From Candidatus Babelota bacterium (GTDB taxonomy: Bacteria; Babelota; Babeliae; Babelales; Vermiphilaceae): a stretch of DNA of 38,401 nucleotides. Shown piece after piece: positions 27,001 through 33,000 of the stretch. The DNA is taken from assembly GCA_049325595.1 (NCBI GenBank), contig JBMOLF010000023.1:1-38401 (forward strand). The letters run 5' to 3'. Made by a program: the position numbers. Each line of letters starts with the position of its first letter. The first letter of the stretch is position 1.

Positions 27001-30000
27001 CCTCCCCTATTCCTACATTTTTTGATCGCAATGCTTTAAATTCTGCTGCGCTAAATGATGGCTTTAAATCTAACTCTTTATGGGCAAAAGCCAACTCGCG
27101 ATAGTGAAATGGTTTAAAGGGAAGTAACTCCATTATTGTCGATGATTCTTGCTCCATTTTTTTTGGAAGCGTTGCCCGTGTTGCTTTATTATTAAAAAGA
27201 TAATATTGAGCTATGTAAATATCATCACCGGTTTTATTATGAATAGTGATCCGATCAGCAAATAATGTCACTGGTATGAATATTATTAATAATATACCAA
27301 CTTTCATTATTTACCCCCTTTTTGCATATCATTTATTATATAAGGAAAGATAACCCGCTTTGTCTATAAATCACAATATTTTTTGCTCTCATTCTTTTTG
27401 ACAAAATGGATTTTCTCGTGGTTTTTCATCCACTTGATTTGATTTGTTGGTGTAATTAAGAAAATAACTACCTGTTACCATCCTAGCTTGAGGCTTATTA
27501 AGAACAGTTATGTTTCCCCTACATGTAGCTTCATGGTTAATTAATTCTTCTCGAGAACCCATATTTGTAGCGCAACGATTACAAACAAAAATGTTTTGAT
27601 TTTGTGATCGCAAATAACATTCTAATGCTTTAGTACAACTTTTATATTCAGTATTACAATGAGGACATTCAAATGTTTTATTTTTCGCCCTCGGTGTTCT
27701 ATAAAAAGAGTGCCATCGACTAAAATGATTAATTGCAAGAGTCCAACTATTCAGATTTTGTTTGTTACAAATACATGTTATTACACTAATTAAAGAATCT
27801 AGTCTCGTTTTGATTGATTCCGTATCTTTTTTATCGTCAACGAAAGTGAGTTGATTATTTTTAATCTCCTGAAAAGATGGTTCTAAATTATTTTGATTAG
27901 TCGTATATTTTTTTAACTTCTTTTTCAAATTACAAGGAAAATGTCGTTTAAGATATGCTTCTGAACTAAAATCTTCCTTGCAAAAAGGACAGCGAAAAAG
28001 ACTTTTGTATATATGACTGGCAATATGATCACGCCCTATAGACACATTCGCATGCGAGCTCGCACAGTAAGGACATTTAACAGCCTCTTTGATTACATAT
28101 TTGCCGCATAGTAATATTCGGTGGAAGTCTTTAACATGTTTATTAAACTCTTCCCAACTCAATTTTTGATTGCAACAAGAAAGTTGAACTTCACTATATT
28201 TCTGGTGTAACAAATCAAGAAGGATTTCATTATTTTTTTCGTCAGAGTTGCTCGTTTTAAAAGTGCATCCTTTTATAGTAACAGCAACTATCTCATGCAT
28301 TTCAGGAATTCTTTCTAATTCAACATTGGTAGAATTGGCAATGAAAGCAAGTGACATTTTATTTTCGGTATTAGACGTTGAATAAGAATAATTTTTTTCA
28401 AAACTACTGGTAAACATGGGAGTAAATAAAAGAACTACCAGTCCACAATTTTTCATGAAGTTGCCCACTCTACTAACAAATGTTTAATGTCTTGCTTTAT
28501 TGTTCAACTAAAAGATAACAATGCAGGTGCTATGACACTTTATCAGTAGCATAAAAAAGTGCTTAAAATAAATATTTTTGATATTGGGTCGTCAATACCG
28601 TTTACTAGGATTAATTTTTAGATGAAAAAATATTTCGACACTCATTTACCGAGAGCTCTATCCAATCATTTGCTTGGGTTGCCTGAGCTGGGACTATCTG
28701 ATTTGTATTATTACTTTGTGTATTAACATCTCTTATTTCTGAGACATTATTCTTTGTTAATGTTTGTTTAATACACTTTTTAAAATGACTATTTAATAGC
28801 ATTTTATACTCATAATTTATTACTTTTTTCCCTGCATGAGAACAAAGTGGACACTCAAATAAGGCAGGATAGGAATGCCAGGCAATATGCTCACAAGCAC
28901 TGTTGGGATTTTTAAGAGATTTATTGCAATGCGAGCAGTTAATACGTTTTTGTCCATTTACAATCGCAGAGTGCTTTTCTTTTTGATGCATGCAAAATTC
29001 TTCCCAATTCATATTTTCCAAATCACAACAGGAATAGTGCTTAGAATTGATTCTTTTCTGAATAATGCCTGTAAGACTCAGCGAATTATAGGAAGAAGGT
29101 TGACTGGCATCAAACACATAATCCTCTATGGTGATTTTTGTTTTATGCGCAGAGCTACTCTTGGCGATTCTTAACGCTAATGGTGTATCTATTGCTGGTG
29201 AATCTGGACACGGAATAACCAATTCAGCAGATTCTTCTGGTTGCAATGAATCACTGTTTACTTGAGGCGTACTAATATTAGCATACAACATAGTAGTAAA
29301 TGGCGTTTGGGGAATACTTTTATTATTTTGATTATTAGTATGAATTTGATCTGCTACTTTCTCACTTGAAATTTCATGCGGCGAATTACTACTCATTTGT
29401 GGTGTGTTACTATTCCTATAGAGCATTTCAGTAAACGGGGTCATAGGAATCATCCCATTATTATTGTCAACGTCAATAACTTGATTTGCTGGTTTTTCAA
29501 TTGGCGTTGGTATTGAATTACTTTTCAAATGAGAAGTATTACTATTGGCATATAACATAGCAGTGAATGGCGTTTGTGGAGTATTCCCAGCACTATTACT
29601 GCTGTGAGAAAAATTATAAAATAAATTATTTTCAGTACGATTTGTGATTGGGCGTGTGCTAAGCAATGAATTATTTTCACGATATGCAGAAGCAACTGGT
29701 ATACTTAAAATATTAGGCTGAGAATAAATATTTGATGGATTTTGTTCAATAACGTCATTTTCAAGAAAATTACCACTCATTGTACAAACATGATCGATAA
29801 GACTTTGGCGTGACTTGTAGGCAACACCGCACAAAGAACAAGTAAAAATAGTTGAATCTCTGTGCTGCAAAAAACATTCAAGCGCTTTTGTAGAAGACCA
29901 ATAACGAATATTACAAAAATAGCACGCATATCTATCGATAACTTTGTGGCGACTACCTATGTGGTTTAATGCTACAGGCCAACAGCCTAGACTTATTCCA

Positions 30001-33000
30001 CAACAAACAATTGCTGCTATTTTTTTATCAACAATATTTTTTGGAGCATCATTGCCGTCTTCACTTAAATGATAATCAGAAATAGCTTGAGAAGAAAATT
30101 GATTTTTATGCATACCTAACAGATAGGTATTTATAAGCAATAGCCCAATTAATATTTTTTTCATAACACATTCCATTTGTTTTAATACTAAGTAATAAAA
30201 AGTATACCATGCAATACAATTATTCCAATTATGCAATACATTAAAAATGCAAACAACTCAATCAAGACAAATCGTAACCTATCACTCGAAATATCGGAAT
30301 TACTTCTCTCACATAGTAAGAGAAGAGTAATGGTTACCAAATTGAATCGTAGAGTGGTATTCATCTACCGATTGATCTATCCAATTATCTATTTCAGGAC
30401 TAGCCTGTTGTATTTGATTCGTATTATTTACTTCAGGTAATTCAGCATTGCGCAGAGAAGAATTATTGATTGAAAATTCGCTATCGGTATTTTCATACGC
30501 TATTGGTTTGTATTTTGTTACAAAGCATTTTTTAAAATGTTTATATAAATTATCCTCGTACGGAAATTCAGTATATTTTTTTTCTGCTGCGCAAACCGGA
30601 CAGCTAAACAATTTAGGATGCTGATGATTAGCAATGTGCTGACAACCATCTCTAACATGTCTAAAAGATTTGTTACAAACCTTACAAGCTACACTTTTTT
30701 TACCTTTTTCTTTTATAAGATGCTTTTCTTTTTGATGTTGACAAAACCTTTCCCAATCAAGATTTTGCAGCTCGCAACACGAATAATAATTTGACTTTAA
30801 TCTTGTTGCAACTAACTTGCTAAGAACATTGAGGTTATTATCAATGGTATCTTTAGGATTAAAAACAAATCCCTCAAGTTCAATTGATTGCATCGCGTCA
30901 GAAGATGATTGATTTGTATTGTTTACCAAATATCTATCATTATTAAAATATTCTTCAGACTCGTATATATTTTTGTCTGTATTATTGATAGAAATATTGT
31001 CAATTACAGGTACCCCTAAATCAGATAGATTAAGAGGATTACTACCCTCTTCAGTCATTTCTAGTGGCTTAAGACCTTTAGAGCATTTTTCTAAATGACA
31101 GGTTAAAAAATATTCTGATCTATAGTTATTATTGCAAAATATGCAAACATATTTTTCTGAATTTGTTTTATTTTTCTTATTTTTCTTCATAAAACAACTT
31201 TTAAAGTGAGAGATTAAAAGTTCTCTATTATCTCGAGAATTATTTTTTGCGTCATCTTTTATGGGACAATTAAATAAATTAGAATGCGTGTGCCAGGCAA
31301 TATGGTCATACCCCCACGAATTACTAGAAGTAACTACCTCACACATTGGACAAATAACTTTATTTTTATCTACCTTGTCACGATGGGCAACTCTTGTATG
31401 TTTACGAAGTTGTTCCCACGTCAAATTATCAATACCACAACAGGAATATAACTTTTTTATTATTCTTTGCGCGATAAGTTTTTTTAAAATTTCAACATTA
31501 TCGTTAATAGGAAGTTTCTTATTAAATTCAAAATTTTCTAGTATCACAACTTGATCTTTGTCTTCTATATTCACTATAGCACGAGGAAGCTTAAAAACGG
31601 ACATCATAGATTTTTGATGATCACGATGGATAACTTGTGGCGAGTTAGTTGCTAAATTAGGATAACTAGCTGTTAAAGAATTTTGATTATTATATAAATT
31701 TTCTGGTGGGGACGATGATAAGTAATTATTGCTGTTTGGAGCAATAATATTTGTATGTTGTGAAGAATAATCTAATGGCGTTTTATTAAATTGATCACTA
31801 TTAGGCGTTTGAACATTTGCATACAACAATGCAGTAAGAGGTGTCATAGGTTGTTGCATTGGTGTGTAAGGTACCTGATTTTCATTTATAAATGACTCAT
31901 TTTCATTGGTATAAAACTGATAAGACTGGGGTGTTTGATAATAAGGTGAATTACCATAATTATAATATGAACTATTTAAATTATAATTTGGTTCAGGTTC
32001 CTGATATGGATAATTTGCATTGTTAATTACATTGGTATTATTTGTTTGGTAATTGTTTGAGTAATATACCGGTGTAACTGGTTCAATTTGTCCAAGCGGT
32101 TGTTGCTGGTCTAAATTATTACAACTATGGCTTAGAAAATTTTGATGAGTTGCACAATCAACATTACAAAAAGAACAAGTAAAAATAGTTGAATCACCAT
32201 GTTTTAAAAAACATTCAAGAGCTTTTTCGGATGTTTCATAGCACGTACGGCATACATTACAAATATAGGCCTTTGCTCTTTTTTTATGTTGGCTTGCAAT
32301 GTGATTAAGCGCGGTAGTCCAATTACCAAGATTAATACCGCAACAATTAATCGCTGCTATTTTCTGATTAAGAATATTTTTTGCAAAATCATCATCTATA
32401 TCAATTATTTCATAAACAGGGCTAATTATTTTGGTAGTTTTGGAACAGTTATCACTATGTTTTTGGTAGGATCTAAATGTGTCATGTTTACTAGCACATT
32501 GTTCGCACGTGAAAATATTTTGATTAAAATGCAACAAAAAACAACTTGCTGCGCTGGGAGCTTGAGAAAAATTTTTATTACAAAACGGACACATGAATTT
32601 GTTATTTTCTTGTACATCTTGGATGTAATTGATAATTCCAAACCAACTAGTAAATGGTTGTCTTATACCAGCAACTTGACTGTTTTTTAAAGCAACTATT
32701 TTTTTATTTAATTGTATTATCTCTTTTGAATTGCGATAACCACGCGGAGTATTAGTATTTTCATTGACTATATTTAATTCCTGATTTTTTCGGGTAAAGA
32801 TTTCTTCTATTGAATTATCATTATCAGAATCAATTATTACAGTCTCTTGAATTCTTTGATCAGGATAAATCTGAGAAAAACTTCCCTGATCTAGTTGCAT
32901 TGCAAAAAATTGAATATTTATAAACAATAAAGCAATTAATACTCTTTTCATGAACTCACTCCATTTTTTTGATCTAAAACTTGTACAAAATAGTATACCA

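What a model noticed while it worked through the whole genome (the two positions that open the first line are those of the whole stretch)
27389..32951. A dozen secreted proteins with eukaryote-type C2H2/C2HC zinc-finger arrays
Three unannotated paralog groups (g01330-1332 here with g01118; g00503/504/513/514/515 on C10; g01145/1155 on C17) carry one to six C-x2-4-C-x12-H-x3-5-H/C fingers, nearly all behind a signal peptide. Tandem classical zinc fingers are a eukaryotic design, so these are candidate nuclear effectors that bind host DNA, RNA or proteins.
Evidence so far: Call 169 lists the fingers (6 in g01332, 4 in g01145); 9 or more of 11 have a signal peptide by the heuristic. Strict pattern in 11 of 583 signal-peptide proteins vs 1.9 in shuffles, 3 of 531 others vs 1.2, two of these being family members with mis-called starts. 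Weak Pfam zf-C2H2 clan hits in 6 of 8 tested, best E 2.8e-4.
(Added by a program. Inside this text positions count along the whole contig: contig position 1 is position 1 of the stretch shown here. "Call 12" and the like, gene names such as g00115 and contig names such as C1 are that model's own, and its searches are not shown. The text may have been shortened before it was handed on; [...] marks where a part breaks off. The agent that wrote the report below was given it as the finding of a first reader that could run no searches.)

Follow-up and report, generated by a model that had tools for sequence, protein, structure and literature searches.

The report
Secreted eukaryote-type zinc-finger protein family
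A small bacterium from a group that lives inside single-celled eukaryotes exports a dozen proteins built from eukaryote-style zinc fingers, and many of its relatives export near-textbook copies of eukaryotic transcription factors, which suggests an overlooked way for these parasites to steer their host's genes.

Summary
The host genome is a Babelota (Dependentiae) bacterium. The 'three groups' are one family: 11 genes with 18 copies of a ~100-aa module, plus a degenerate 12th gene. Each module is an N-helix and three classical beta-beta-alpha fingers (CCHH with a collapsed knuckle, C2H2 or C3H, C2HC). The family holds in a held-out test; AlphaFold pLDDT is 94; the profile matches CTCF, GLI and Zif268 at about 1e-8 per stretch. 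The module was found only in this genus. The same profile exposed canonical TGEKP-linked Kruppel arrays elsewhere in the phylum (PF00096 over cut-off in 59 of 261 genomes): 75 of 85 sampled have signal peptides, many carry NLS-like and acidic tails, and the four DNA-contact positions vary most. The window's own proteins lack TGEKP linkers and strict NLSs, and fingers A and B have lost the recognition code. Best reading: secreted host-nucleus effectors, with this genus carrying a compact, derived version whose ligand (DNA, RNA or protein) is open. Published supplements list such Pfam labels; no discussion was found for Babelota. The scan's earlier notes showed nothing similar.

The parts
30309..32951 (-). 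g01332, 880 aa: signal peptide, four modules plus one extra C2HC finger, N/Q/S/Y/P-rich linkers, acidic-aromatic C-terminal tail
32898..32951 (-). Sec-type signal peptide of g01332 (about 18 aa, heuristic)
   Evidence: similar N-termini in P0149 and P0022
32436..32720 (-). module 1 of g01332: finger A ligands lost, finger B C3H, finger C C2HC
   Evidence: orthologous modules in P0149, P0022 and G001
32106..32396 (-). module 2 of g01332 (C-type: CCHH + C3H + C2HC)
31185..31499 (-). module 3 of g01332 (H-type: CCHH + C2H2 + finger C lacking its second Cys); absent from the close ortholog P0149
31077..31151 (-). single extra C2HC finger (aa 601-625), with a counterpart in P0022
30516..30836 (-). 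module 4 of g01332 (H-type)
28611..30164 (-). g01331, about 517 aa from the probable start at Met25 of the 541-aa ORF: signal peptide, one C-type and one H-type module
   Evidence: the start is inferred from the signal-peptide-like sequence
29775..30056 (-). module 1 of g01331 (C-type)
29286..29573 (-). three copies of a short linear motif TP[FL]TxMLY in the disordered linker (one more copy in g01332; in no other ORF of the genome)
28764..29087 (-). module 2 of g01331 (H-type)
27389..28456 (-). g01330, 355 aa from Met5 of the ORF: signal peptide, one H-type and one C-type module
   Evidence: ortholog P0156 is 84% identical
28334..28363 (-). NKMS[IL]xF[LI][LA]N motif just after the signal peptide, shared only with the 12th member C10:58761-59153; resembles the eh1/Mat-alpha2 corepressor-binding spacing (lead only)
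27920..28234 (-). module 1 of g01330 (H-type); modelled as helix + three beta-beta-alpha fingers, pLDDT 94.5, pTM 0.83
27512..27826 (-). module 2 of g01330 (C-type; last ligand of finger B lost); same fold, pLDDT 94.2, pTM 0.85

Best explanation
The three genes are members of a genus-specific family of Sec-exported effector proteins of a Babelota bacterium, delivered into a protist host and acting most likely in its nucleus. SHOWN: each protein combines a signal peptide, one to four copies of a ~100-aa zinc-finger module (N-helix; finger A with a CC or CxC knuckle and two His; finger B C2H2 or C3H; a five-residue linker then F-x-C; finger C C2HC), and long low-complexity linkers. In the models, fingers B+C sit like a DNA-bound finger pair while the helix and finger A fold back, giving a compact domain. 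Related genomes secrete canonical Kruppel arrays with the full DNA-reading signature. INFERRED: export through Sec and the type II-like system (two secretins, two T2SS ATPases); entry into the host nucleus; docking of the module on host chromatin or transcription machinery (DNA through fingers B-C, or RNA or protein); recruitment of host co-regulators by the acidic and short linear motifs in the linkers; descent of the module from the canonical secreted arrays of the phylum. Rough odds: real zinc-finger fold 0.97, exported 0.85, acts inside the host cell 0.75, acts in the nucleus 0.5, sequence-specific DNA binding by this module 0.25.
For: One family by a held-out model. Ligand columns kept over 37 modules: finger A C30/C27/H30/H29, finger B C36/C36/(H17 or C17)/H29, finger C C36/C35/H37/C32. 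95 of 103 module Cys/His kept in five close orthologs; modules 79% vs linkers 57% identical. The profile finds CTCF, Aart, ZNF568, TFIIIA, GLI and Zif268 at about 1e-8 per stretch. AlphaFold pLDDT 94 for both module types. Fingers B+C superpose on PRDM9, Kaiso and ZBTB24 at rmsd 3.0-3.9 over 57-66 residues, Z 4.0-4.2, which is weak on its own. Fast evolution: family members are 31-36% identical to the sister genome against 53-84% for RecJ, Cmk, the phospholipase and the collagen-like neighbours; module gain or loss between near relatives. Acidic activation-domain-like tile (recalled rule) in 3 of 11 G000 and 4 of 11 G001 members vs 30 of 552 other secreted proteins. Secretion apparatus and ATP/ADP translocases present. 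Phylum context: PF00096 over cut-off in 59 of 261 genomes; 75 of 85 sampled arrays have signal peptides vs 116 of 235 neighbours; class-1 NLS outside the fingers in 16 of 75 vs 0.7 shuffled and 9 of 552 controls; canonical helix residues over 489 fingers; positions -1, 2, 3, 6 are the four most variable among close paralogous fingers (pN 0.48-0.57 vs 0.29 for other surface positions).
Against: No strict NLS in any of the 11 G000 members, and the loose basic motif (6 of 11) is only about twice the shuffle value. No TGEKP linker. Finger A carries W/F at helix +1, and finger B has A/G/L/V at +4 and Cys for the first His in 17 of 37 modules, unlike DNA-reading fingers. The three fingers do not superpose as a unit on any extended DNA-bound array (rmsd 10-16). 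About half of all proteins of this genome have signal peptides. The NLS excess in canonical arrays is not significant genome by genome against neighbours (8 vs 3, p 0.23). The pN result rests on non-independent pairs from mainly three loci; 1 of 8 loci goes the other way, and pS at contact codons is also high (0.49), so dN/dS > 1 is not shown. The tree separates genus modules from canonical arrays (98/93) but is unrooted, so descent is not shown. There is no evidence on expression, translocation or host identity.
Confidence: 0.5

Rival explanations
1. Secreted effectors that act in the host cytoplasm or at the vacuole or mitochondrion as protein- or RNA-binding adaptors (for example on ubiquitin or RNA machinery); the compact three-finger module is a protein-interaction domain.
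For: No strict NLS; compact fold with a hydrophobic +1 position; weak Pfam hits to protein- or RNA-binding finger types such as Di19, jaz, MYST and SUZ12; Babela is described as rich in secreted ankyrin and ubiquitin-pathway proteins (PMC4378268 passages).
Against: A finger C profile ranks classical C2H2 factors in the 60 rows shown, with no TRAF entry; modules are mostly basic (net 0 to +13 in G000); the linkers resemble eukaryotic regulatory tails; the canonical relatives are nuclear-type.
Confidence: 0.27
2. The proteins stay in the periplasm or on the cell surface as zinc-binding or disulfide-bonded structural or metal-buffering proteins, with no role inside the host.
For: Sec signal peptides deliver only to the periplasm; no T3SS export gate and no VirB4 were found (genome 95% complete); a DsbD gene and collagen-like genes lie in the same window.
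Against: Invariant His ligands, Kruppel spacing and rapid sequence turnover fit a host-facing role better than metal storage; secretins and T2SS ATPases offer an onward route; NLS-bearing canonical relatives would have no use in a periplasm.
Confidence: 0.15
3. Artefact or internal role: eukaryotic contamination in the assembly, chance Cys/His patterns, or cytoplasmic bacterial regulators with false signal peptides.
For: All G000 Pfam hits are under cut-off; the signal-peptide call is a heuristic.
Against: The genes sit among RecJ, Cmk, Der, DnaX, RpsB and Lon, are syntenic in a single-contig sister genome, have genome-typical GC3 (0.19-0.26 vs 0.249 +/- 0.038) and intact frames; the pattern far exceeds shuffles; canonical arrays in other genomes lie between genes with G000 orthologs.
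Confidence: 0.04

Closest known systems
Classical C2H2 (Kruppel-type) multi-finger transcription factors: CTCF, PRDM9, Kaiso/ZBTB33, Zif268, TFIIIA (Pfam PF00096, clan CL0361)
   Same: Beta-beta-alpha fingers; C-x2-4-C-x12-H spacing; H-x5-F-x-C linker length between fingers B and C; profile and structure matches; low-complexity tails.
   Different: Bacterial and behind a signal peptide; fixed three-finger unit with an N-helix; CC knuckle in finger A; C3H variant of finger B; no TGEKP; the three fingers are not in the extended DNA-wrapping arrangement.
GLI/ZIC/Zap1-type packed finger pairs
   Same: A first finger that packs on the second rather than lying along DNA (recalled for these families); ZIC3 (E 1.7e-12 whole sequence) and GLI hit by the profile; residues 16-75 align weakly to the Zap1 pair 1zw8 (Z 3.1, rmsd 3.2).
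   Different: The conserved Trp lies at helix +1 of finger A, not in the C-x-W knuckle of these families (recalled); there is an added N-helix; only three fingers per unit.
C2H2 proteins of Endozoicomonadaceae (Kistimonas, Endozoicomonas, Ca. Endonucleobacter) and Cardinium
   Same: Host-associated bacteria with many TGEKP-linked arrays: 59 of the 80 titled loci of a capped scan; PF00096 counts up to 205 per genome in a published supplement, and one sentence on Kistimonas (PMC12491435).
   Different: Only 4 of 51 such ORFs inspected had a Sec-type signal peptide; they are canonical arrays, not this module; no function was described in the passages read.
Nucleomodulins and TAL effectors (functional analogues)
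   Same: Secreted bacterial proteins that act on host nuclear functions (PMC10117894 passages); TAL effectors combine a variable DNA-reading array, NLS and activation domain (recalled).
   Different: No C2H2-array nucleomodulin appeared; unrelated folds; here the likely route is Sec plus a type II-like system.
Ros/MucR prokaryotic C2H2 regulators
   Same: Classical zinc finger in bacteria (cited in PMC12491435).
   Different: Single finger in a cytoplasmic nucleoid-type regulator (recalled); no ROS_MUCR hit among all families listed at E up to 1 for the three window proteins.

Membership tests
Classical C2H2/C2HC zinc finger fold (clan CL0361) | beta-hairpin plus helix with two Cys and His/Cys ligands at C-x-C-x12-H spacing | tested here: met
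   ligand conservation, AlphaFold secondary structure, profile hits, Atlas features 0.96-0.97
Classical C2H2/C2HC zinc finger fold (clan CL0361) | zinc actually bound | not testable with these tools
   inferred from the ligand pattern only
Pfam PF00096 zf-C2H2 (curated) | score over the gathering cut-off of 25.2 bits | tested here: not met
   G000: no match at E <= 0.001 in the genome search, best 14.6 bits in the window proteins; one G001 member passes at 28.7
Kruppel-type DNA-binding array | TGEKP-type linker | tested here: not met
   linker length kept but consensus H-x-D-P-D-[IL]-F; met in many other Babelota
Kruppel-type DNA-binding array | F and L core with polar base-reading residues at -1, 2, 3, 6 | tested here: not met
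   finger C keeps L(+4) in 31 of 37; finger B does not (4 of 37 L) and finger A only partly (16 of 37), with hydrophobic +1; met in the canonical Babelota set: F 80%, L 89% of 489 fingers
Kruppel-type DNA-binding array | three or more fingers in extended, groove-following geometry | tested here: inconclusive
   only B+C superpose on DNA-bound pairs; whole-module rmsd 10-16; the models were made without DNA
Nucleomodulin | secretion signal and machinery | tested here: met
   signal peptide heuristic 7 of 11 strict, 11 of 12 loose; two secretins and two T2SS ATPases
Nucleomodulin | classical nuclear localisation signal | tested here: not met
   0 of 11 strict in G000; 2 of 11 outside the fingers in G001 (one class-1, one bipartite); 16 of 75 class-1 in canonical arrays
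Nucleomodulin | shown to reach and alter the host nucleus | not testable with these tools
   needs infection or expression experiments
TRAF-type zinc finger | finger C profile prefers TRAF fingers | tested here: inconclusive
   no TRAF entry among the 60 rows shown of 221; TRAF6_Z2 in 1 of 30 members; weak viral TRAF-type fold hits
Ros/MucR | ROS_MUCR profile match, single finger, cytoplasmic | tested here: not met
   absent from the complete family lists for the three window proteins; multi-finger and exported

The most novel reading that the evidence does not exclude
Babelota secrete a class of C2H2 transcription-factor mimics, a zinc-finger counterpart of TAL effectors, that enter protist nuclei, read host DNA with rapidly diversifying recognition helices and recruit host co-activators or co-repressors. 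This genus has rebuilt the array into a new compact three-finger domain (with a CC-knuckle finger) that still targets host chromatin.
Probability: 0.38. Interest if true: 0.92.

Novelty: new variant of a known kind. Interest (0 to 1): 0.77.

Why it matters
Multi-finger C2H2 proteins are the largest eukaryotic transcription-factor class (established knowledge), yet no bacterial effector of this build appeared in my literature searches. If Babelota export them into protist nuclei, they would be a new kind of nucleomodulin, spread over roughly a quarter to a third of sampled genomes of a whole phylum, with a parallel set in Endozoicomonadaceae. They would explain part of the many orphan secreted proteins of these parasites and give a directly testable route by which they reprogram their hosts. 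The genus-specific module is also an undescribed zinc-finger domain that Pfam and NCBIfam miss, with two unusual ligand sets (vicinal CC knuckle, C3H).

Tried and rejected
A single-sequence search with the 880-aa protein found relatives in only 1 of 60 other genomes; only the module profile reached the phylum. The search of 1.84 billion representatives was swamped by long poly-finger proteins; of three hits inspected, two (P0022, P0149) were genus-type. Giant-virus origin: no relative in viral contigs with one module and no BFVD fold match at E <= 0.001. Metagenome contigs gave only 21-42-residue matches. A Sin3-interaction-like motif seen in three G073 proteins is not enriched over controls (4 of 85 vs 35 of 612), so it is rejected as evidence. 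LxxLL is not enriched. The eh1-like motif is post hoc (2 of 12 vs 0.3 shuffled) and absent from G001: lead only. G073 fingers with CxC knuckles looked like intermediates, but score no better than other canonical arrays and do not join the genus modules in the tree. Promoter and terminator scans were at chance level. No RNA holder was listed, so expression is untested. The contig comparison listed too few differences for a dN/dS estimate. Complex prediction of H-type with C-type modules was not available, so whether modules pair is open. A VIA-align search of the second model was not obtained; Foldseek was used. Regex ligand labels per module were too loose; I used the column counts instead.
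Full report
Setting. The window is contig C23 of G000 (1.29 Mb, 24 contigs, 95% complete). 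It holds ordinary bacterial genes (RpsB, DnaX, Der, Lon, Cmk, RecJ) and two ATP/ADP translocases. Members of this phylum are described as intracellular parasites of protists with a type II-like secretion system and many signal-peptide proteins (PMC4378268, PMC4776705, PMC6561590; passages). G000 has two secretins and two T2SS ATPases; no T3SS export gate or VirB4 was found.

The observation. The three ORFs are real. The strict finger pattern is in 11 of 1327 ORFs against 1.5 in shuffles; 10 of the 11 belong to the family. The fingers are parts of one repeated ~100-residue module: an N-helix; finger A (adjacent CC or CxC, then x12-13-H-x4-H, usually Trp on the helix); finger B (C-x2/4-C-x12-[H or C]-x3-H); five residues and F-x-C; finger C (C-x2-C-x12-H-x3-C). 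G000 has 11 genes with 18 modules (C23 three, C15 one, C10 five, C17 two) and a degenerate twelfth gene (C10:58761-59153). A model made only from G001 modules ranks all 11 first, with a gap of four orders of magnitude to the twelfth, so the three groups are one family. G001 has at least 16 members in the regions fetched, three of them in the syntenic neighbourhood. The window's three genes carry 8 modules and one extra finger. GC3 is genome-typical.

Fold. The module profile finds solved classical finger proteins at about 1e-8 per stretch: CTCF, Aart, ZNF568, TFIIIA, ZIC3, GLI, Zif268. AlphaFold models of an H-type and a C-type module have pLDDT 94 and pTM 0.83-0.85, with a helix followed by three beta-beta-alpha units. 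Structure searches give no match at E <= 0.001 and best Z 4.2. They return almost only C2H2 proteins at the top, with fingers B+C matching DNA-bound pairs at rmsd 3-3.9, while whole-module alignments have rmsd 10-16. I read this as a compact domain in which the helix and finger A fold back; I could not inspect coordinates. Ligands are conserved in orthologs (95 of 103 Cys/His), and modules are better kept than linkers (79% vs 57%). The family evolves fast (31-36% identity to G001 vs 53-84% for several neighbours) and gains or loses modules.

Distribution. The module proper was found only in this genus. The C-type profile scores 1e-16 to 1e-30 on C-type modules of G000 and G001 and at best 3e-10 in the other 259 genomes. 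Database searches add only close Logan relatives. In an unrooted tree the 42 genus modules form one side of a 98/93 branch against 28 canonical windows, with G000 and G001 modules mixed, so the expansion predates the two species.

The wider finding. The module profile matched 77 of 261 genomes of the phylum, and PF00096 passes its cut-off in 59 of 261, against 1 of 14 controls. In the loci read, those matches are canonical Kruppel arrays, many with TGEKP linkers. From 48 loci chosen as strong hits (a biased sample) I took 85 complete ORFs with two or more strict fingers, from 29 genomes. Of these, 75 have a signal peptide by heuristic against 116 of 235 neighbours, and they lie between genes with G000 orthologs, so they are not contamination. 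Outside the fingers, 16 of 75 carry a class-1 NLS (0.7 shuffled; 9 of 552 other secreted G000 proteins) and 25 of 75 an acidic activation-domain-like tile by a recalled rule (30 of 552 controls). The genome-by-genome NLS comparison with neighbours is not significant (8 vs 3). Their 489 fingers show the textbook pattern (F 80%, L 89%; Q/T/R at -1, S/G at 2, N/D at 3, R/K at 6). Among 1189 close finger pairs within 8 loci, positions -1, 2, 3 and 6 are the four most variable (pN 0.48-0.57 vs 0.29 for other surface sites; 7 of 8 loci agree). The pairs are not independent and pS at those codons is also high, so positive selection is suggested, not shown. A capped DNA-pattern scan of all prokaryote genomes shows similar arrays mainly in Endozoicomonadaceae (59 of 80 titled loci), also in TM6 and Cardinium records; only 4 of 51 Endozoicomonadaceae ORFs inspected had a Sec-type peptide.

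What differs in the window's family. There is no TGEKP linker and no strict NLS (0 of 11). Finger A has a hydrophobic +1 residue; finger B has lost Leu(+4) and, in half the modules, has Cys for the first His. Finger C stays most canonical and ranks C2H2 factors, not TRAF fingers, in the rows shown. Modules are mostly basic. Linkers are Q/N/S/T/P-rich, with acidic tiles in 3 of 11 (p 0.02 vs controls, paralogs not independent) and repeated short motifs. Two members share an N-terminal motif whose spacing resembles IxIxxLL/FxIxxIL, the Tup1- and Groucho-binding motifs; Tup1 orthologs occur in Amoebozoa (PMC4943189, passages). This is a post hoc lead, absent from G001.

Mechanism. Most likely these are exported effectors that act in a protist nucleus, docking on chromatin or transcription machinery through the module and recruiting host co-regulators through the tails (0.5). 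A cytoplasmic adaptor role (0.27) and a periplasmic or surface role (0.15) remain open; artefact is unlikely (0.04). The family works like a eukaryotic zinc-finger regulator but fails the membership tests of a Kruppel DNA-binding array; its canonical relatives pass them.

Novelty. In the listings, no Babelota paper mentions zinc fingers or C2H2 in its text (13 papers listed, all with zero occurrences of 'zinc finger'), and searches showed no C2H2-array nucleomodulin. The labels are on record without comment: a supplementary table of PMC4776705 has nine 'C2H2' occurrences, the rows shown being TM6 gene labels (one file not searchable); PMC12491435 notes zinc-finger enrichment in Kistimonas in one passage and tabulates PF00096 counts (one file not searchable). 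PMC4378268 supplements have no 'C2H2'. PMC11521996 has none of the terms in its main text. Supplements of PMC6561590 could not be seen, and subscription papers are not in the library. PMC10117894 was read in passages. The scan's earlier findings held nothing similar. Verdict: a real, new variant of a known kind, namely an undescribed three-finger domain in one genus within an apparently undiscussed phylum-wide set of secreted transcription-factor-like proteins. Interest 0.77.

Noticed in passing
L231 (G073:C1:228000-247900), L235, L236, L239, L023, L026 and others: Tandem clusters of up to 8 secreted canonical Kruppel C2H2 genes (up to 16 fingers per protein) with NLS-like motifs in many Babelota genomes; this deserves its own study.
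   Followed up: partly
L049-L127 (titled records): TGEKP-linked arrays are abundant in Endozoicomonadaceae, including the intranuclear Ca. Endonucleobacter, mostly without Sec signal peptides; also one Cardinium record.
   Followed up: partly
L232:5852-11766 (G073): Secreted-type arrays whose fingers often have a CxC knuckle (13 cases), with LLxAAxxL-type helices resembling Sin3-interaction motifs and strongly acidic-aromatic C-termini.
   Followed up: partly
L261:3762-4154 (G000:C10:58761-59153): 130-aa secreted protein with a CC-knuckle finger and the same N-terminal NKMS motif as g01330; probable twelfth family member.
   Followed up: partly
G000 C10 members (L015) and G001 L262: Short motifs outside the module recur across paralogs and both genomes: [FY][DE]LGIL, P[KR][LI]I[IF] and LxI[KR]L; function unexplained.
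   Followed up: partly
window 25406-27307 (-): Secreted-type protein with a eukaryote-like lysophospholipase/PLA2_B domain (E 3e-28) directly downstream of the zinc-finger genes; 71% identical in G001.
   Followed up: no
window 33223-38267 (-): Five tandem signal-peptide proteins with short collagen repeats; in G001 three such genes lie between the zinc-finger genes.
   Followed up: no
window 22388-25315 (-): 975-aa protein ending in a bacterial EndoU nuclease domain (E 3.5e-14), followed by a 156-aa ORF; looks like a polymorphic toxin with an immunity gene; not in the syntenic G001 stretch.
   Followed up: no
window 8283-11300 (-): Two adjacent ATP/ADP translocase (TLC) genes, a marker of energy parasitism.
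   Followed up: no
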